In this document: piece by piece, positions 13,021 through 23,072 of the stretch
How the letters are laid out: each line of letters starts with the position of its first letter
Position numbering within the stretch: position 1 is the first letter of the stretch
Virus record (IMG/VR): IMGVR_UViG_2565956727_000002
Length of the DNA: 46,604 bases
Source: a virus
Lineage: Duplodnaviria; Heunggongvirae; Uroviricota; Caudoviricetes
Direction: 5' to 3' (one strand)
The notes under the pieces: model-generated
Told to the model about the DNA's origin: nothing
The model's database searches: none
The model's input: the letters and a program-made list of their open reading frames with translations, nothing else
Program-made: the position numbers and the translations under genes

Positions 13021-13350
13021 CTATGCCACGACCTGTTCAAAATCTGCCGTTATGGTTACCCACAACGCCCCCACGCTTGCCGACCATTTACGACAAACCA
13101 CCCTGATCGGCTTCCAGTCATAAGGTGGCGTCCACTGAAATGCGCGGACGCCACCGTGCCGTTCCAGAAAGGCTTTTAAAGATGGGTGTTCACATTTACG
13201 AACACGTATCGTCACGCTGTAAATCGACAACTGGTTATTCAGTCCCGCCGCACGACGCTGTTCATAACCATCGCCCAGCTTCACTGTCACCACTTTCGGC
13301 TCTGATACCACATTCATATCCGGGCGCACTTTCCAGTGAAACGTCTCCAT
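13021..13350 (-). CDS. M: minor tail protein M
   Basis: 109 aa, lambda M-like, directly downstream of the tape measure gene. Confidence 0.9.
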   Translation of the reverse strand: METFHWKVRPDMNVVSEPKVVTVKLGDGYEQRRAAGLNNQLSIYSVTIRVRKCEHPSLKAFLERHGGVRAFQWTPPYDWKPIRVVCRKWSASVGALWVTITADFEQVVA

Positions 13351-16300
13351 TACCGATATGCTCCACTTAACCGACCACCATCACGGGCCTGCTGTTGCAT
13401 AAAGTCCGCTGCCGCTTTTTTCCCAAGGTCATAAACCACCTTCAGGGCAGCCGGACCTATCTGCCCGTTCGTGCCATCGTTATTGATCTCGATGTTGTAC
13501 TGCGGGGCAAACATCGCCATACCTGAACCACCAATATCCGCCACAACCCCCAGCTTACCGTCAGCACCACGACGCAGTGGCAGAATGGCTTCAGGTCCAG
13601 CTTCCCCCATCACACCCGCGCCTTTTGCAAAAGCAAAAAACGTCGGACGGTTAACCACCGTGCCACTGTAACGACTCAAATCAGCAGACTGATAAATCCC
13701 CCCATTGGCATTCAGGGAAAGGCTGCTGAGATCAAATCCCAGTACACTGCCAATCCCTTTTATCGATTTCATCATGGTTGCCTGCGCCAGGATTTTCGCC
13801 ATATCTGACAGCACCGAAGAGGTGAAGGATTTGAAGTTGAGTTTGCCGGTAGTGACAAAAGTTGCCAGGCCATTTCCCATGTTGCTGAAGGCTGATGAGA
13901 ACACCTGTTCTGCTGTTCCTGCCGTATTGTCTGCATCCACGGTAAAATCCTGAAATGCACGCAGGACTCCGTTTTTCCAGTTACCCTGCACAACTTCAAG
14001 CTGTTGCCAGTAACGGCGATTCTCATTCAGTTGTCGGTTCAGGCTCTCCGTCAGCGCCTGCTCGGCCTTTCTGTAGTCATCCGTGTTATATGTCCCTTTC
14101 TGCTCACTATCCCGCCTCAACTGCTCCAGCTGTTGCTGGTATTTCTGGCGAAGACTCAGTTGTACCTGATATCGCTGCCGCTGCTGATCACCCATACCCA
14201 CCGTGGCGATATCCAGGTCATGTTGCTGACGCTGAGCGCGCTCTTCTTCAGCCAGTTGACTGGTCAGCTGAATTGTTTTTTTCTTCAGATCGTTGAGTGC
14301 CGTTTGTTTCTGAAGCTCCTGCTGTTTTACATCCAGCAGCGTCAGTGCCTGAATCAGTTCATCTTTACGGGCCAGCACACTCTTTTCATCTGCCGTCAGT
14401 TTTTTCCCGTCCAGATCGCTGATGCGCTGCTGCAGAGCCAGAAGCTGTTTATGCGCTTCTGTCATCTTTTCAGTGGCAATGCCTGCTGACTGTCTTGCAG
14501 CAGCAATCTGTCCTTCCACCTGTGCCTGTTGCTGACTGTACTGCAGCAATAACCGGGTGGCCTCATCATTACGGGTTTCGCGTGTTTTTTTCTTACCGGA
14601 TGCCAGGGCTTTCTCGTAACGTTCATTTTCACGTTGTATCGCCGCATCCCTGACAGCCTGGTCGGCGTACTGCATGGCATTAATACGCGCAATTTCACGC
14701 TGATGTCGTGCTGCTTCCGTTTCATTCATCCGGTTCAGTGCAGCATTTTCAGCATTACGTCGTTTCTGTTGCTCCTGATAATTCCGCTCTGCCTGCTCTT
14801 TTGCATCCTGCAAATCCTTCTGGCGTTTTTTCTCCTGAAGATCGTTAAGACGCTGCTGATCGTATTCAACCTGAGAAGATGATGCCGTCCAGGGGAGTCT
14901 TTTCGCCCGCGACACTTTCTCCTGTAAAGCGGTAATCTGTTCATCCAGCGAGTCTTCACGACCAATATTCATGGCCGCATCCCAGAAACGACTCCACAAA
15001 TCAGACAGATACTTCAGCGTACTGCCAAGCGCATTGAGGTTATTATCAATATCCGCAGTACGCCGACCGGTTTCCTCTGCCAGTGCAGACATGGCTATCC
15101 GTGCAGCATCACTGGACCGTCCCTGATCCCCAAGGACACGTATCTGCTCAAGCTGAGTGGCAGTAAGAAAATGCAGCTCATTGTCCAGAGCCTTCGCGGC
15201 ATTTACAGGATCATCCTTCAGCCGCTTAAACTGATTTATGGTATCGCTGACCGACTGGCCAACCGATCGCTCCATCTGTGCGGCAGCTCTCGCCACCATA
15301 CCGATATCGTTTCCACGAAATGCACCACTCCCCACCACCTGCGCCAACGCACCGGCTGCAGCATGTTGCGTGATACCATTCCCGGAAATAGCACGACTGA
15401 GCGTCCACAGCTGCCCGGCAGTGACTCCGGCATAATGCCCCGTCAGCGACAACTGGCGGTTAAATTCTTCCCCCTCCTTCTGACCGTCATACCAGGCTTT
15501 ACCCAGACCATAGACGGCCGCGGCAATACCGCCAATAACCCCGCCAAGCATCATGCCTTTCGGTGACATCAGTGTGTCTATCCATCCGGCACGGTTAGCC
15601 AGCGTTATCCCGGATCCCCTCAGCGCCCCTAAATTGCCGCGGGCCAGTTCACCTATCAGAACGCCTATCTCCTGGCGGGCTGCTGCACTTTTCAGACCCA
15701 GCGAATGCGTGGCTTTTCCTGCCTGCTCCATTTTGCGGATATACACTTCTGCAGCACTGCTTACCCCCAGCTGGGCTGCCTTGGCACGAAGCAACTCAGA
15801 AGATGAAAGATTCTGGCGGGTTGCCTGCTCTTTAAGCTGACGGATAAACGCCACTTTCTGTCGGGTAGCCTCTTCCTCAGCCTGTGTAAGAACACGGGTT
15901 TTCGCAGTAACCTCAGAAATCAGCGCCAGATAATCCTGCTGACCAATCCCGCCACTGTTTCTGGCCTGTCGGATCTGCTGCTGAATACGCTGTAATTCCT
16001 GCAGCCCCGCACTGGCCTGTTTCACACTGTCAATCTGACGATAAAACGCAGCAGCCGCTTTATCCTGAGCCTCCGCCAGAGCCATGGCCTGCGCCTGTTC
16101 CTCGCGCATTTTCTGGCTCAGCGCCTCCATGCGCTGGCGGGTTTTCTCCACCTCGCGGGCCATGCGTTCATGAGCCTGTGCGTTCTTCTCCACCGTCTGC
16201 GCATGGACGGATGCGGCTGTTGCAGCCGAAGAAGCCGCCTGCGTTGTCTGCCGGGCGGCCTGAGTCTGACGCTCCATAAAACGCTGCATACGGGCAGAAG

Positions 16301-16415
16301 ACCGTTCTGCATCGCTGGCTGCACCATTCAGAAGGTTTTTGATACGGGGAATTTCATTTTTAAACTCTGCCGCATCAATCCCCAAATCAATGACCAGGTT
16401 GGCTATCTGGTCCAT
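13350..16415 (-). CDS. H: tail tape measure protein (H-like)
   Basis: About 1020 aa, coiled-coil-rich; N-terminus MDQIANLVIDLGIDAAEF and C-terminus ...NNDGTNGQIGPAALK... resemble lambda H; start taken at internal ATG 16415. Confidence 0.9.
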   Translation of the reverse strand: MDQIANLVIDLGIDAAEFKNEIPRIKNLLNGAASDAERSSARMQRFMERQTQAARQTTQAASSAATAASVHAQTVEKNAQAHERMAREVEKTRQRMEALSQKMREEQAQAMALAEAQDKAAAAFYRQIDSVKQASAGLQELQRIQQQIRQARNSGGIGQQDYLALISEVTAKTRVLTQAEEEATRQKVAFIRQLKEQATRQNLSSSELLRAKAAQLGVSSAAEVYIRKMEQAGKATHSLGLKSAAARQEIGVLIGELARGNLGALRGSGITLANRAGWIDTLMSPKGMMLGGVIGGIAAAVYGLGKAWYDGQKEGEEFNRQLSLTGHYAGVTAGQLWTLSRAISGNGITQHAAAGALAQVVGSGAFRGNDIGMVARAAAQMERSVGQSVSDTINQFKRLKDDPVNAAKALDNELHFLTATQLEQIRVLGDQGRSSDAARIAMSALAEETGRRTADIDNNLNALGSTLKYLSDLWSRFWDAAMNIGREDSLDEQITALQEKVSRAKRLPWTASSSQVEYDQQRLNDLQEKKRQKDLQDAKEQAERNYQEQQKRRNAENAALNRMNETEAARHQREIARINAMQYADQAVRDAAIQRENERYEKALASGKKKTRETRNDEATRLLLQYSQQQAQVEGQIAAARQSAGIATEKMTEAHKQLLALQQRISDLDGKKLTADEKSVLARKDELIQALTLLDVKQQELQKQTALNDLKKKTIQLTSQLAEEERAQRQQHDLDIATVGMGDQQRQRYQVQLSLRQKYQQQLEQLRRDSEQKGTYNTDDYRKAEQALTESLNRQLNENRRYWQQLEVVQGNWKNGVLRAFQDFTVDADNTAGTAEQVFSSAFSNMGNGLATFVTTGKLNFKSFTSSVLSDMAKILAQATMMKSIKGIGSVLGFDLSSLSLNANGGIYQSADLSRYSGTVVNRPTFFAFAKGAGVMGEAGPEAILPLRRGADGKLGVVADIGGSGMAMFAPQYNIEINNDGTNGQIGPAALKVVYDLGKKAAADFMQQQARDGGRLSGAYR

Positions 16416-16724
16416 AACGCACACCTCCGGAAATACCTTCCCCAAGATGCATCAGTTCTTCGTCCGTTCGCTCCGGTATCCCGTTCTCTTCCGGTAAAAG
16501 GCTGAAATCAGCCACCGCAGCATCACTGCTGCCGGACACCATTCTCACGATCAATGCCTTCAGCGAGGCAAACTGCGCATCCATCCACACATCACTGAAG
16601 CTCTGCATCCGGAAATAATCGCCCCACTCACCAAGCTCAGTGGCCGACATTTCCGACAGCATCCGCCGCCAGTCTGCCCGCCTGAACTCCCGGGCAAGCC
16701 GCATGACAAACTGCATTTCCCGCG
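16387..16724 (-). CDS. T: T-frame segment of the tail assembly chaperone G-T (-1 frameshift extension of G)
   Basis: ORF in the -1 frame relative to G, open upstream of its first Met through the end of G; conserved G/T arrangement between V and H. Confidence 0.7.
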
Positions 16725-17114
16725 TCAGGACTTTTCCGGCGTCAGCACCTCATGCTCCAAATCCCCGGCATTCTCAATGGCTCCCATACCGCTCAGCGAC
16801 AGAACCATCTCCGCCCCCGCTCCCAGGGCATCATACGACCATGTTGTAATAACGGATGCGCAAAGCGTCTCAACATCCTGAGACTGTTCCGCATTCCACA
16901 GTGAGCGGGAAACCAGCCAGGCATTGATATCCATCCCCATCCGTAGAAAAGCAATCTGTCGTTCAGCCTCCGGCAGTTCTCCCTCTTCGGCATCAAACTT
17001 TGCCGTTCGCTGCTGAACAAACGCCAGATATTCAATTCTCTGCAGCCCGGACAGCTCACTGAGCACCACGGACTGCTTTTCATAATTAAACGTGCCCTGT
17101 TTCAGAAACATCAT
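16725..17114 (-). CDS. G: tail assembly chaperone G
   Basis: About 130 aa starting MMFLKQGTF..., preceded by GGTGGAG Shine-Dalgarno; lambda G-like. Confidence 0.85.
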   Translation of the reverse strand: MMFLKQGTFNYEKQSVVLSELSGLQRIEYLAFVQQRTAKFDAEEGELPEAERQIAFLRMGMDINAWLVSRSLWNAEQSQDVETLCASVITTWSYDALGAGAEMVLSLSGMGAIENAGDLEHEVLTPEKS

Positions 17115-17171
17115 GTTCTCCACCTGCAAAAAAGCCCCGGATAACCGGGGCAAATGATGAGTATCGTCCTG

Positions 17172-17915
17172 TTAACCTGCGGCGCTGACAGCCACCGTAG
17201 CCACTGCCACAAAATCGCCGTCAGAAGTCATGCCCACAATGCTGACACTGCCCTGCTTCACGCCTTTCACCGTGGCCACAAGCCCGTTCAGGGTCACCGT
17301 GGCAGTCTGTGGTTCTGTCGAATGCACACTGATCGCTTTGTCACTGGCTCCGTCAGGTTTTACTGTAAAGGTCAGCGTGGTGGTTGCTCCCACTTTTACA
17401 CTGGCAGATGCCGGTGCCACCGTCAGCCCGGTAACGCCCACGATTTCAGTGCCTTCCTCTGCCAGATACGGACGCCCCACACCGCTGATTTTCACTGTGC
17501 GGGTCATCACGTCTTTTGAGGCAATGGTTTTACCCAGTGAACTCAGCCAGCCACGGAAAACATCAACAGTACCGTTGGGATATTTGATACGAAAAGCGCA
17601 GACTTCACCGGAGTCGAACAACTGAACCAGTTTTTTCTGCCCGCTGTCCCCCGGACGCCAGGCCAGCGTCGCCGAAGTATCACCGACTGATTTCTGCCCC
17701 TGGGTTGTCGTTTTCCAGTCTGCATCTTCATCATCGAGATAAGTGTCATCTTCTGCATCAGCGGTCATTTCGCCAGGTTGCAGATCCTTCACCATCGCAA
17801 GACGCAGCCAGTCAGTGTCCGATAAAGGGTTCGCAAACGCATCGCCCTTGCCGGTATACATCCAGAACGTCGTTCCCGCACCTTTCGTTTTTGCCAGTGG
17901 ATTTGGTGTGGTCAT
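17172..17915 (-). CDS. V: major tail tube protein V with C-terminal Ig-like (Big_2) domain
   Basis: Start ATG 17915 preceded by AAGGAGG; MTTPNPLAKTKGAGTTFW... lambda V-like; Ig-like C-terminal domain. Confidence 0.9.
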   Translation of the reverse strand: MTTPNPLAKTKGAGTTFWMYTGKGDAFANPLSDTDWLRLAMVKDLQPGEMTADAEDDTYLDDEDADWKTTTQGQKSVGDTSATLAWRPGDSGQKKLVQLFDSGEVCAFRIKYPNGTVDVFRGWLSSLGKTIASKDVMTRTVKISGVGRPYLAEEGTEIVGVTGLTVAPASASVKVGATTTLTFTVKPDGASDKAISVHSTEPQTATVTLNGLVATVKGVKQGSVSIVGMTSDGDFVAVATVAVSAAG

Positions 17916-19591: not shown

Positions 19592-21550
19592 TTACGCCGT
19601 ACATTTCACCAGACCGCGGTGATCAACTGGCGCGACACCGGCGTCAATACGCACTTTCGTTGTCACGCCATCCACACTGAAGCCCTCCATCTGATCAATA
19701 TATGGCGTATCCACACCGTTGAGATAAGCCACTTCAATCGTATCGGAGCCTTTTGACGCAGCCAGGTAGAAGGTGGTCTGGCTGTTATCATCAAGACGAG
19801 GCTCTGCAATAACGGTCGCAAAATCTTTCACCGGGTTAATAATACCGGCGTTAATGTCAGCCCCCTTGACACTTGAGGAGCGAATGACCTGGTTAGCAAC
19901 AGACTCCATCGCCGTCGGTACCAGTACGAACGCAGGACGAATATTCAGATGACGCTCCCCCTCTTTCTGAACGCGCATCAACTGGCGGGCTTTATCCAGC
20001 GATGCCACGTCCATTGCAGCGCTCTCCAGTACGTTTGCATGTTTCGCTTTATCGAACAGACTTACATTATCTGTGGAGATTTTCGGGTTAGACGTCAGAA
20101 TGGCATAAACCAGATCGGCAATAGTGGATTTCGCCGCACGGCCCAGTTTCATCGGGACATCGGTCAGCATATTCAGATCATCATTGATAATGGCCTGACG
20201 GGTGATACTGAACAGCTCGCCATAGGTCGCCAGTGCAATAGTGGCCTGTTTATCTCCGGTGGTGACGTATTTATATTCCGCCCCTTCACGCACCTGACGC
20301 AGAGCACTGAAGCCCCCCATACCCACACGATGGGCAATTTTAAAATCAGACAACTGACCTTTCCGCGTCCACTGTTCATAGGTTTCAGGGGCATCTTCCC
20401 AGCCCTGCAGAATGGCTTTGTTCGCAACATCCAGCAGAATATTACCGAAGTCAGACGTACTGTGTGTGAACGCCGCACCGACCATCTGCATCGGGTTATA
20501 ACCGGAAACCCCAATACCCCGTTCAGTTAGTGACATACGGGCATATTCACGCAGGGTCATCCCGTTGTAGACATTATCACGTTCGGTTTTTTCAAATCCG
20601 GCACGCGCCATCAGCGCCTGGCGAATCCCGTCCCCCACAAAATTACCGTTACCGGCATAAATATGAGCCGGGGTATTTTTATTGGATGGCGTGGACTCGC
20701 GCCCCATCTCGTTCAACAGCTTTTCACGGGCCTGCTCCAGCGAACATTCAGGATCGGCAAGACACTGAGCCTGCAGCGTCTGATAACGCCCGCCAAACAT
20801 GGCAAACAGATCACTAATACCGTTTACACGCGCTTTTTGCTCTGCCAGTACCTGCGCACGGATGCTGTTTTCATCCACCACGGGTGCTGCTGCCTGCACT
20901 GGCGTCCGGGAGGCTTCAGATTCATTATCCTGTACGCGTGGAGCACTGTTGCGTGGCGGAGTAATCATGTTTCGAATGGATTCCGGCATCTTTTTAAATT
21001 CCTCTGTACGTTTTGACTGAATACATGCCATTGCCTTAACGGCTGGCGTTACCTGATCAGCAAATCCATGTGCCAGACATTCGGCACCGGACATCCAGGT
21101 CTCATCCGCCAGCATGGCAGCAATTTCATCGGTGGTTTTCCCGGTTTTCTGTGCATAAGCGGGTAACAGAACCGCCTCAACTTTATCGAGCAGGTCGGCA
21201 TAGGTGCGCATGTCCTCCGCATCACCGCCCGTAAAGCCAAATGGTTTATGAATCATCATGAAGGTGTTTTCCGGCATAATGACCGGGTTTCCTACCATCG
21301 CAATGACCGACGCCATTGACGCCGCCACACCGTCGACATAAACGGTAATGGACGCACCATGTGTTTTCAGCGCATTAAAAATGGCGATGCCTTCAAAGAC
21401 ATCGCCACCCGGTGAATTAATATGGAGATTAATGTGGGTGATATCGCCCAGTGCATTCAGATCACTGATAAACTGCTTCGCTGTAACACCCCAGAAACCA
21501 ATCTCGTCATAAATATAAATATCCGCGTCACTCTGGTGACCAGCCTGCAT
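19592..21550 (-). CDS. prohead protease (ClpP/S14-like) fused to major capsid protein (HK97 fold)
   Basis: N-terminal ClpP-like region (…INSPGGDVFEGIAIFNALK…MMIHKP…) followed by a long capsid-like C-terminal domain; start ATG 21550 just inside the portal 3' end. Confidence 0.85.
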   Translation of the reverse strand: MQAGHQSDADIYIYDEIGFWGVTAKQFISDLNALGDITHINLHINSPGGDVFEGIAIFNALKTHGASITVYVDGVAASMASVIAMVGNPVIMPENTFMMIHKPFGFTGGDAEDMRTYADLLDKVEAVLLPAYAQKTGKTTDEIAAMLADETWMSGAECLAHGFADQVTPAVKAMACIQSKRTEEFKKMPESIRNMITPPRNSAPRVQDNESEASRTPVQAAAPVVDENSIRAQVLAEQKARVNGISDLFAMFGGRYQTLQAQCLADPECSLEQAREKLLNEMGRESTPSNKNTPAHIYAGNGNFVGDGIRQALMARAGFEKTERDNVYNGMTLREYARMSLTERGIGVSGYNPMQMVGAAFTHSTSDFGNILLDVANKAILQGWEDAPETYEQWTRKGQLSDFKIAHRVGMGGFSALRQVREGAEYKYVTTGDKQATIALATYGELFSITRQAIINDDLNMLTDVPMKLGRAAKSTIADLVYAILTSNPKISTDNVSLFDKAKHANVLESAAMDVASLDKARQLMRVQKEGERHLNIRPAFVLVPTAMESVANQVIRSSSVKGADINAGIINPVKDFATVIAEPRLDDNSQTTFYLAASKGSDTIEVAYLNGVDTPYIDQMEGFSVDGVTTKVRIDAGVAPVDHRGLVKCTA

Positions 21551-21563
21551 CCTGAACCAGGAA

Positions 21564-23072
21564 TTATTCTTCGGACTGGTCGTCGGTGTGCTGCGGCTCC
21601 TGTCGTTTCGTTGCGGCACTACTGCCTCCTTTATCACTGGCCGGATCGGTATCAAATACCAGATCCAGCTTGCGGTTTTCATCAATTTCGGCCTTGCGCC
21701 GACGTTTGACATCATCCGGATTACGACCACCAGCACGTACCCAGTCTGATTCTGTCGCCGCTCCACCACGAATCTGGATTTTCCAGGCCTCAGCCTCCTT
21801 AACAGGGTCAATCCACGGCATCACTGGTCCGGAATACACCGCGGTATACAGTGAAGAACGGTCAAGATCGCGGGGTAGCCTGATAACACCGGATGCCACA
21901 GCCTGTTTCAGCCATGCACGATACATCGGGCGGGTGACGGCACCAATAAACCAGTCCTGCAGGATCAGGTAGCCATCAGTGGATTCAACCAGCTCCTGAC
22001 GCTGGGCGCTGTAAGTGCCGTTATAGTTGCGCGCTGTACTGGAAAAACTCAGACGACTGCCCGCCGCCACGGCACGCAACTGACCATTACGAAAAGTTTC
22101 AAGGTTAGGATTGGGGCGATCCGACTTCACCATTCCGATTTCTTCGCCGGGTTTCAGATCGTCGTAAATAATGCCCGGCTGAATGGTAAGCTCACGTTCA
22201 TTCTCCTTTCTGCCATTACCATCCGGTTCATAGCTCTGCCCGTCGCCTTTCCGGATGTACATCCCCAGAGCAGCGGCGATCCTTGCTGCAGTCAGCTCAG
22301 AATCTTCATATTCTTTCAGGGCACTGAGGCGGATCAGCACACCGGACAACAAAGACGTCCCGCGCATCTGGTGCAGACGGCGAACAAATTTAAGATGCAG
22401 CATTCGCTCTGCATCCACTTCTTTGGTTTCCATCTGCCGTCCGGATACGGGACGGCTTTTATACACCAGATATTTTTCGGGACGCCCCCAGTCATCAACA
22501 AACACGCCCTGATTCAGCCTGTTGCTCTCATCACTGGTCATGGGAATAAAGTCCGGCTCGAGCGCCTCCAGCCAGAAATGAACACCGGCAGAAGGCGCCA
22601 GGCTGTTTATGCGCCCGGAAACCATCTGGGCAAACACCTCACCATCGCGCAGCCAGGTACGAAGCATCAGACGTTCCAGCATCGGACGGGTAAACTGCCC
22701 GGTGACTTCCGGGCTGACAGACCATTCACTCCATCGGGTGCGAATCTCCGCAGCCAGGTCACGGGCAATGGCCCCATTGCGTAATACCGGATGTGGCTCG
22801 ACAATAATCCCGTTTTTCCCCACCACCCGTTCTTCCAGCTTGTCAAATACACCAATAACCAGATCGTGGTTGTTATCAAGGTAACGGGCCTGCTCACGTA
22901 ACGACACGGCCCCGTACTGGCTTAACTGGTCGGCAGTTCGGTTCTCCCGTCGGGCTTTGTGTGTCCGCGTCGTTTTTACGGCCTCATAAGCCTGGATCAC
23001 CGCACGGGAACGCAGCCTTGCCGCTTTCCATCCTGGTGAAAAAACGCCAATCACATCATCAAGAATTGCCAT
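21564..23072 (-). CDS. B: portal protein (lambda B-like)
   Basis: About 500 aa downstream of TerL; start ATG 23072 overlaps the stop of the upstream small gene (ATGA). Confidence 0.9.
   Translation of the reverse strand: MAILDDVIGVFSPGWKAARLRSRAVIQAYEAVKTTRTHKARRENRTADQLSQYGAVSLREQARYLDNNHDLVIGVFDKLEERVVGKNGIIVEPHPVLRNGAIARDLAAEIRTRWSEWSVSPEVTGQFTRPMLERLMLRTWLRDGEVFAQMVSGRINSLAPSAGVHFWLEALEPDFIPMTSDESNRLNQGVFVDDWGRPEKYLVYKSRPVSGRQMETKEVDAERMLHLKFVRRLHQMRGTSLLSGVLIRLSALKEYEDSELTAARIAAALGMYIRKGDGQSYEPDGNGRKENERELTIQPGIIYDDLKPGEEIGMVKSDRPNPNLETFRNGQLRAVAAGSRLSFSSTARNYNGTYSAQRQELVESTDGYLILQDWFIGAVTRPMYRAWLKQAVASGVIRLPRDLDRSSLYTAVYSGPVMPWIDPVKEAEAWKIQIRGGAATESDWVRAGGRNPDDVKRRRKAEIDENRKLDLVFDTDPASDKGGSSAATKRQEPQHTDDQSEE

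What the first reader, a model, noticed from the sequence alone, without database searches (positions are those of the whole stretch)
16387..17114. G/T tail chaperone pair in the conserved -1 frameshift configuration with a non-canonical slip site
The T frame is in the -1 frame relative to G and stays open back through the last codons of G, the arrangement required for the programmed G-T fusion. The mRNA at the end of G reads CCG GAA AAG UCC UGA, so the A-rich stretch GGAAAAG is present instead of lambda's GGGAAAG; the A-site Lys codon can re-pair in the -1 frame but the P-site re-pairing is imperfect.
Basis: partly seen in the sequence, partly recalled or inferred. Interest (0 to 1): 0.4.

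Follow-up and report, generated by a model that had tools for sequence, protein, structure and literature searches.

The report
Lambda-type G/G-T tail chaperone frameshift site
This is the ordinary tail-assembly chaperone gene pair of a lambda-like E. coli phage, where a few ribosomes slip back one base to fuse two proteins; its slip signal GGAAAAG breaks the textbook rule but is the commonest form in this gene family and is already annotated in phage N15.

Summary
On the minus strand, G (17114..16725, Pfam Phage_TAC_2) is followed by T (Pfam Phage_tail_T). T lies in the -1 frame and is open from 16749 to 16387. The mRNA reads CCG GAA AAG UCC UGA. The heptamer G_GAA_AAG (16737..16731) sits exactly where lambda has G_GGA_AAG, and differs by one base.

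In 23 divergent enterobacterial lineages, the site reads GGAAAAG in 17, GGGAAAG in 3, GGGAAAA in 1 and GGCAAAA in 2. The flanks vary freely. The first G lies at a four-fold degenerate position and is invariant. In one lineage, stop codons confine any -1 shift to UCA CUG GAA AAG. I found no conserved downstream RNA structure.

The best mechanism is a tandem -1 slip. tRNA-Lys moves from AAG to AAA. tRNA-Glu moves from GAA to GGA with a middle-position U•G pair, which is that tRNA's documented best near-cognate pairing.

It is not new. The N15 GenBank record marks GGAAAAG as its slippery sequence, and Gifsy-2 has the identical junction annotated as a frameshift hybrid. The module occurs in about a third of complete E. 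coli genomes.

One open point remains. G_GAA_AAG served as the poorly slipping control in an in vitro study, and I found no measurement of its efficiency in vivo.

The parts
16725..17114 (-). Gene G, the tail assembly chaperone. It encodes 129 aa from ATG 17114, or 128 aa from ATG 17111, which is the start PGAP uses. The stop is TGA at 16727-16725.
   Evidence: ORF list, sequence, Pfam Phage_TAC_2 1.8e-39, 33% identity to lambda G, RefSeq annotation 'phage tail assembly chaperone G'.
16731..16737 (-). Slip heptamer G_GAA_AAG. In the 0 frame it reads ..CCG GAA AAG; in the -1 frame it reads GGA AAA G.
   Evidence: Sequence. It sits at the position homologous to lambda G_GGA_AAG. It is invariant in 17 of 23 divergent lineages. 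The same string is annotated as the slippery sequence in N15.
16728..16749 (-). The G/T overlap, the only stretch where a -1 shift can join G to T. It is bounded upstream by the -1 frame TGA at 16752-16750 and downstream by the G stop at 16727-16725.
   Evidence: Direct reading and frame walk (4 open -1 codons before the heptamer, 1 codon between AAG and the stop).
16387..16731 (-). The T segment read after the slip: 114 aa starting VLTREMQFVMRLAREF..., ending at TGA 16389-16387. The predicted G-T fusion is 242 aa, with junction ...EVLTPEK|VLTREMQ...
   Evidence: Pfam Phage_tail_T 5.1e-15, 38% identity to lambda T, alignment A1.
16714..16716 (-). ATG that databases use as an independent T start. 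It is probably not the route of T expression.
   Evidence: Annotated as a separate CDS in mEp460, HannyBb and RefSeq. This Met is absent from most homologues, including Gifsy-2, phi80, N15 and lambda. The nearest G-rich stretch ends 2 nt before the ATG.
16746..16751 (-). SD-like GAGGUG, 8 nt upstream of the heptamer. It is a possible local stimulator but is not conserved.
   Evidence: Sequence. It varies to GAGGCG within the same clade and is absent in other lineages.
17128..17151 (-). Terminator-like hairpin with a T-run, between the V stop and the G start.
   Evidence: Scan. A terminator is annotated at the same place in mEp460, Ayreon and N15.
17172..17915 (-). Gene V, the major tail tube protein, directly upstream.
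   Evidence: Pfam Phage_TTP_12 1.5e-66 plus Big_2, RefSeq CDS.
13350..16415 (-). Gene H, the tape measure protein. Its ATG at 16415 overlaps the end of T.
   Evidence: Pfam TMP_2, TMP_4 and Tape_meas_lam_C, RefSeq CDS start.

Best explanation
This is the lambda-type tail assembly chaperone pair of an mEp460/cdtI-like lambdoid E. coli phage. Most ribosomes translate G and stop at 16725. A small fraction slip back one base on G_GAA_AAG (16737..16731) and read on into T. That makes a G-T fusion of about 242 aa with the junction ...TPEK-VLTRE....

By homology with lambda, G and the G part of G-T coat the tape measure protein H. The T part recruits the tail tube protein V. The slip rate sets the G to G-T ratio.

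The proposed slip is tandem. tRNA-Lys moves from AAG to AAA. This is a favourable change and is the core of bacterial -1 sites. tRNA-Glu (anticodon mnm5s2U-U-C) moves from GAA to GGA, keeping C36-G1 and U34-A3 and forming a U35•G2 pair in the middle. No conserved RNA structure helps.

Shown here: gene identities, frame arrangement, homology of the site, and its conservation. Inferred: that the fusion is made, its amount, and the two-tRNA mechanism.
For: Gene identities and order V-G-T-H come from Pfam and from similarity to lambda G and T.

The heptamer is at lambda's exact position and differs by one base.

I surveyed 23 lineages whose T proteins are under 80% identical. GGAAAAG occurs in 17, GGGAAAG in 3, GGGAAAA followed by UAG in 1, and GGCAAAA followed by UAG in 2. 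The seven columns are the only fully conserved block until the LAREF..DWR protein motif.

The first G is the third base of a variable 0-frame codon (CCG, CUG, GCG, GUG). It is G in 21 of 21 four-fold degenerate cases, against 30-54% G in the same genes. That gives P of about 1e-9 if the lineages were independent. Only a P-site tRNA re-pairing to GGA reads that base.

The Lys codon is AAG in 20 of 23 lineages, against 28% background use.

In L139, stops confine the shift to UCA CUG GAA AAG UAG.

Related phages carry canonical sites at the same spot: A_AAA_AAG in VT1-Sakai and C_CCA_AAA in Vibrio HY01.

A T-protein tree shows GGAAAAG spread across the whole group, with other forms nested in at least three places.

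N15's record labels GGAAAAG as the slippery sequence. Gifsy-2 has the identical CCG GAA AAG UCC UGA and is annotated as a frameshift hybrid.

GGA is a documented misreading hotspot for E. coli tRNA-Glu, through U•G at the middle position (PMC4878615 and PMC3866648).

In the dnaX context, a single G•U mismatch introduced by the shift costs about 5 kJ/mol and still leaves substantial frameshifting (PMC6787027).
Against: No protein or reporter data exist for this phage.

In a purified E. coli system, AUG GAA AAG gave mainly 0-frame product. Its authors called it unfavourable for slippage, in contrast to G_GGA_AAG (PMC6924986).

I found no conserved stimulatory structure (z = -1.28, consensus -3.39 kcal/mol). 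I found no conserved SD-like element either. The efficiency may therefore be well below lambda's few percent.

The lineages share ancestry, so the probabilities above overstate independence. The survey was also seeded with two T-protein peptide patterns, so it samples only part of the family.

The GGCAAAA lineages cannot re-pair a P-site tRNA well, yet they keep GG. Something other than P-site pairing may therefore contribute to GG conservation.
Confidence: 0.82

Rival explanations
1. The fusion is made by a single-tRNA slip. Only tRNA-Lys slides from AAG to AAA, as at A_AAG tetramers or NNA_AAG hexamers. The GAA codon matters only through the wobble behaviour of its tRNA, not through re-pairing to GGA.
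For: A_AAG is by far the best -1 tetramer in E. coli, reaching 5.6% with a pseudoknot (PMC4066793). Natural sites A_CGA_AAG and G_CGA_AAG work without P-site re-pairing, and the 5' codon modulates efficiency (PMC5009743). The GGCAAAA-UAG lineages in this family can only use a tRNA-Lys slip.
Against: The first G of the heptamer is invariant at a four-fold degenerate site in 21 of 21 cases. A one-tRNA slip does not read that base. Tetramers need a strong stimulator to reach percent levels, and none is conserved here.
Confidence: 0.22
2. T is translated on its own from ATG 16716, as databases annotate it, and there is no programmed frameshift.
For: An ATG lies 9 nt after the G stop. mEp460, HannyBb and RefSeq annotate a separate 109-aa T.
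Against: The ATG is not conserved. Gifsy-2, phi80, N15, lambda and most prophage lineages have no Met there. There is no well-spaced Shine-Dalgarno sequence. What is conserved is the -1 overlap with the heptamer. From my own knowledge of Levin, Hendrix and Casjens 1993, which I could not read here, T in lambda is made only as G-T.
Confidence: 0.05
3. RNA polymerase slippage on the A run, not ribosome slippage, produces the shifted message.
For: The site contains an A4 run.
Against: Four A's are far shorter than the homopolymer runs I know to support productive transcriptional slippage. This rests on my own knowledge and was not checked here. It would also not explain selection for the flanking GG and the terminal G.
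Confidence: 0.02

Closest known systems
Bacteriophage lambda G / G-T programmed -1 frameshift at G_GGA_AAG
   Same: It has the same two Pfam families, the same V-G-T-H gene order and the same -1 overlap. The slip site is at the identical position relative to the T domain (K-V-x-x-x-E-[LM]-x-F). No conserved downstream structure was found.
   Different: The third base of the heptamer is A instead of G. The 0-frame codon is therefore Glu GAA, not Gly GGA, and P-site re-pairing needs a middle U•G pair. G stops 1 codon after AAG rather than 5. G is 33% identical to lambda's and T is 38% identical.
Phage N15 genes 14/15, whose GenBank record marks GGAAAAG as 'slippery sequence for -1 translational frameshift'
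   Same: It has the same heptamer at the same position in a homologous G/T pair. It also has a terminator-like stem-loop between the major tail gene and G.
   Different: The preceding codon is GCG rather than CCG. G continues 5 codons past AAG. The T proteins fall in a different branch of the tree.
Salmonella prophage Gifsy-2, STM1039 / STM1041.1n, annotated 'part of G+G' frameshift hybrid protein'
   Same: The junction is identical, ACG CCG GAA AAG UCC UGA, and it is the closest named relative outside the mEp460/cdtI group, with 53% T identity.
   Different: It has a different host and a diverged protein sequence. Nothing differs at the site itself.
A_AAG and NNA_AAG single-slip sites (IS1222 G_CGA_AAG, Bacillus cdd A_CGA_AAG)
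   Same: They share the A_AAG core read by the single E. coli tRNA-Lys, with a 5' codon that is not a perfect re-pairing partner.
   Different: Here the 5' codon can re-pair near-cognately (GAA to GGA), and the base it would read is under selection. The known single-slip sites use stimulators, and none is conserved here.

Membership tests
Lambda-type G / G-T tail assembly chaperone frameshift module | The upstream ORF is a gpG-family chaperone. | tested here: met
   Pfam PF06894 Phage_TAC_2, 1.8e-39, well above the cutoff. BLASTP to lambda G gives 4e-16.
Lambda-type G / G-T tail assembly chaperone frameshift module | The downstream ORF is a gpT-family domain, lies in the -1 frame and overlaps the 3' end of G. 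| tested here: met
   Pfam PF06223 Phage_tail_T, 5.1e-15. BLASTP to lambda T gives 5e-27. The frame was read directly.
Lambda-type G / G-T tail assembly chaperone frameshift module | The pair is located between the major tail tube gene and the tape measure gene. | tested here: met
   V (Phage_TTP_12) lies upstream and H (TMP_2, Tape_meas_lam_C) lies downstream.
Lambda-type G / G-T tail assembly chaperone frameshift module | A canonical X_XXY_YYZ slippery heptamer lies in the overlap. | tested here: not met
   The only candidate is G_GAA_AAG, which fails the XXX rule at position 3. It occupies the homologous position and is conserved.
Lambda-type G / G-T tail assembly chaperone frameshift module | A G-T fusion protein is produced at a low, fixed ratio to G and is required for tail assembly. 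| not testable with these tools
   This needs a reporter assay, western blot or mass spectrometry, plus genetics.
GGAAAAG subclass of G/T slip sites (N15, phi80, Gifsy-2, mEp043) | GGAAAAG lies at the position aligned with lambda's GGGAAAG, with GAA AAG in the G frame. | tested here: met
   Anchored comparison.
dnaX / IS-type stimulated -1 frameshift cassette | A conserved downstream hairpin or pseudoknot, or an upstream SD-like stimulator. | tested here: not met
   The local fold has z = -1.28. The consensus structure over 17 lineages is -3.39 kcal/mol with essentially no covariation term. GAGGUG upstream is not conserved.

The most novel reading that the evidence does not exclude
GGAAAAG, not lambda's GGGAAAG, may be the prevailing and perhaps ancestral slip site of the enterobacterial lambda-type G/T family. 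It may work in vivo at a useful level without any RNA stimulator, because tRNA-Glu tolerates a Watson-Crick-like U•G pair at the middle position when it re-pairs to GGA. If so, the bacterial heptamer rule X_XXZ_ZZN should be widened to admit this near-cognate class. The sequence used as a non-slippery control in vitro would then be a naturally selected recoding signal. Genome screens limited to canonical heptamers would miss it.
Probability: 0.45. Interest if true: 0.4.

Novelty: already known. Interest (0 to 1): 0.2.

Why it matters
For this window it matters little. The locus is a standard, widespread prophage tail module. The frameshift, including this exact heptamer, was recognised by annotators of N15 and Gifsy-2.

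Two practical points follow. First, current annotation splits G and T into separate genes. I saw this in RefSeq/PGAP and in the mEp460, Ayreon and HannyBb records. The G-T fusion is therefore missing from protein databases for a module present in 1,840 of 5,426 complete E. coli genomes. Second, the family offers a natural series at one fixed position: GGAAAAG, GGGAAAG, GGGAAAA, AAAAAAG, CCCAAAA and GGCAAAA. That series could calibrate how much P-site mispairing a stimulator-free bacterial -1 site tolerates. In vitro work treated G_GAA_AAG as poorly slippery, so that question is open.

Tried and rejected
Downstream stimulator. Folding 91 nt and 181 nt around the site gave z-scores of -1.28 and -0.77. 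RNAalifold over 17 GGAAAAG lineages gave -3.39 kcal/mol with no useful covariation. I rejected this.

Upstream SD-like GAGGUG (16751-16746). It varies within the clade and is absent elsewhere, so it is not a conserved element.

Motif over-representation. GGAAAAG occurs 15 times against about 8 expected, with 2 of 100 shuffles reaching 15. This is uninformative.

Another slip site elsewhere in G. This is impossible, because the -1 frame is closed by TGA at 16752-16750.

Independent T start. The ATG is not conserved.

Literature. Full-text searches for GGAAAAG or 'GAA AAG' together with slippery, phage or frameshifting returned only the in vitro EF-G study and an unrelated plant virus paper. Xu, Hendrix and Duda 2004 and Licznar et al. 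2003 are not held. I therefore could not check whether they list or measure this heptamer. One search failed on syntax and one returned nothing.

The first viral-contig scan returned only near-identical copies. The diversity came from genome contigs.

Full report
WHAT IS THERE

The genes lie on the minus strand. G runs from ATG 17114 (a second ATG is at 17111) to TGA 16727-16725. Its last codons are ACG CCG GAA AAG UCC UGA.

A second frame starts one base 5' of the G frame, so it is the -1 frame. It is open from 16749, just after a TGA at 16752-16750, down to TGA 16389-16387. It overlaps the last 22 nt of G.

Pfam assigns G to Phage_TAC_2, the lambda gpG family (1.8e-39). It assigns the -1 frame product to Phage_tail_T (5.1e-15). 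The neighbours are a lambda-type tail tube protein upstream and a tape measure protein downstream.

IDENTITY OF THE WINDOW

The 901 bases around the site are 100% identical to Escherichia phage phi458. They are 97-99% identical to Ayreon, mEp460, cdtI and Tritos. A 24-kb stretch matches the same group of lambdoid phages.

The same G/T module, at 95% identity or more, is in 1,840 of 5,426 complete E. coli genomes.

None of the records I opened joins G and T. All of them annotate T as a separate CDS. This holds for Ayreon, HannyBb, mEp460 and a RefSeq chromosome.

HOMOLOGY OF THE SITE WITH LAMBDA

Lambda reads GCG GGA AAG UGU in the G frame and GGG AAA GUG UUC GAC GGU GAG CUG AGU UUU in the T frame. 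This phage reads CCG GAA AAG UCC in the G frame and GGA AAA GUC CUG ACG CGG GAA AUG CAG UUU in the T frame.

The T-frame proteins align without gaps from the heptamer onward: GKVFDGELSF in lambda against GKVLTREMQF here. The two heptamers therefore occupy the same position and differ by one base, GGGAAAG against GGAAAAG.

COMPARATIVE TEST

I searched one genome per species for relatives of the T-frame protein and anchored every locus on the start of the match. After clustering at under 80% T identity, 23 lineages remained.

| Heptamer | Lineages |
|---|---|
| GGAAAAG | 17 |
| GGGAAAG | 3 |
| GGGAAAA followed by UAG | 1 |
| GGCAAAA followed by UAG | 2 |

Several observations bear on selection:
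- **Conservation block.** The seven columns are the only fully or nearly invariant block until the LAREF..DWR protein motif about 40 nt downstream. The neighbouring bases vary freely.
- **Distance to the G stop.** The G frame ends 0, 1 or 5 codons after AAG, so distance to the stop is not the conserved feature.
- **First G.** It is the third base of a 0-frame codon whose amino acid varies (Pro, Leu, Ala, Val). It is G in all 21 four-fold degenerate cases. Those codon families end in G only 30-54% of the time in the same genes. That gives about 1e-9 if the lineages were independent, which they are not fully.
- **Lys codon.** It is AAG in 20 of 23 lineages, against 28% background use.
- **A bounded window.** In L139 the -1 frame opens two codons before the heptamer and G stops right after it. 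The shift must therefore happen within UCA CUG GAA AAG.

Named phages fit the same picture:

| Phage | Site at the homologous position |
|---|---|
| phi80, mEp043 | GCG GAA AAG |
| Gifsy-2 | CCG GAA AAG UCC UGA, identical to the window |
| VT1-Sakai | A_AAA_AAG |
| Vibrio phage HY01 | C_CCA_AAA |
| An Stx2a phage | G_GGA_AAG |

A neighbour-joining tree of T proteins places GGAAAAG throughout the enterobacterial group. The other forms are nested in at least three separate places. Lambda's canonical site therefore looks like the minority form in its own family. This holds within the limits of a survey seeded by two peptide patterns.

MECHANISM

The established model for lambda comes from the review PMC5009743. 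G and the G part of G-T bind the tape measure protein. The T part binds the tail tube protein. The roughly 30:1 ratio set by the frameshift is critical for tail assembly.

For this site, tRNA-Lys can move from AAG to AAA, which is the core of bacterial -1 sites. tRNA-Glu would move from GAA to GGA with a U•G pair at the middle position. That particular pairing is a documented error hotspot for E. coli tRNA-Glu, both in vitro and in vivo. In the dnaX context, a single G•U mismatch created by the shift costs about 5 kJ/mol and leaves substantial frameshifting.

Selection on the first G, which only a re-pairing P-site tRNA would read, favours a two-tRNA slip over a tRNA-Lys-only slip. The sequence cannot settle this, and the GGCAAAA-UAG lineages show that a tRNA-Lys-only route exists in the family.

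I found no conserved downstream structure. The SD-like GAGGUG 8 nt upstream is not conserved.

COUNTER-EVIDENCE

Peng et al. 2019 (PMC6924986) used AUG GAA AAG as the sequence 'unfavorable for slippage' and obtained mainly 0-frame product. G_GGA_AAG slipped readily in the same system. The efficiency of the natural site may therefore be lower than lambda's. I found no in vivo measurement of it.

IS IT NEW?

No. The N15 GenBank record carries a misc_feature 'slippery sequence for -1 translational frameshift' whose seven bases are GGAAAAG, at the homologous position. Gifsy-2 has the identical junction, and its T homologue is annotated as 'part of G+G' frameshift hybrid protein'. The PRFect paper also lists non-XXXYYYZ motif classes, including one named 'twofour', among tail chaperone frameshift sites.

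Systematic E. coli work on frameshift motifs considered only Z_ZZN and X_XXZ_ZZN patterns, so this class fell outside its genomic screen.

VERDICT

The finding is real and correctly interpreted, but it is an ordinary and already recognised feature. Its small residual interest has two parts. The site is missing from routine annotation. The in vivo efficiency of a heptamer that in vitro work treats as poorly slippery appears unmeasured, although it is the commonest form in this gene family.

Noticed in passing
window 17128..17151 (-): A strong terminator-like hairpin (GCCCCGG-TTAT-CCGGGGC followed by T6) sits between the stop of the major tail gene V (17172) and the start of G (17114). A terminator is annotated at the same place in mEp460, Ayreon and N15. 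It could lower transcription of G, T and H relative to V.
   Followed up: partly
window 16738..16751 (-), and the same offsets in L090-L143: In the G frame, the codon five codons before GAA is GAN (Glu or Asp) in 22 of 23 lineages. The base just before the heptamer is always a pyrimidine. This gives a C-terminal peptide pattern E-x-x-x-[PLAV]-[EG]-K. I did not determine whether this reflects protein function, an E-site effect or a nascent-peptide effect.
   Followed up: no
L091 and L093 (1501..1510), L123: Three prophage lineages have a Lys AAA codon directly followed by UAG: CUG GCA AAA UAG (L091, L093) or AUG GGA AAA UAG (L123). In the GGCAAAA pair the upstream tRNA cannot re-pair. This suggests a stop-codon-assisted tRNA-Lys-only slip in part of the family.
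   Followed up: partly
window 16387..16716 (-), and RefSeq locus L160: RefSeq/PGAP and several phage records annotate T as a free-standing 109-aa protein from ATG 16716, with no ribosomal-slippage join. The G-T fusion is therefore absent from protein databases for a module found in about a third of complete E. coli genomes.
   Followed up: yes
window 16387..16415 (-): The tape measure gene H starts at ATG 16415, preceded by GGAGGUG. It overlaps the last 29 nt of T, which suggests translational coupling of H to the rare ribosomes that reach the end of T, or independent initiation inside T.
   Followed up: no
window 19592..21811 (-): This 739-aa ORF lies where related phages annotate a protease/scaffold protein and a major capsid protein. 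It looks like a single fused head protease-scaffold-capsid gene.
   Followed up: no
L124-L138, L144-L148 (genome-contig hits): Sequences essentially identical to lambda G/T turn up in assemblies of unrelated organisms, including Kitasatospora, Oceanobacillus, Leeuwenhoekiella and Enterococcus. They are mostly on short, low-coverage contigs and are almost certainly lambda DNA contamination from sequencing libraries.
   Followed up: no
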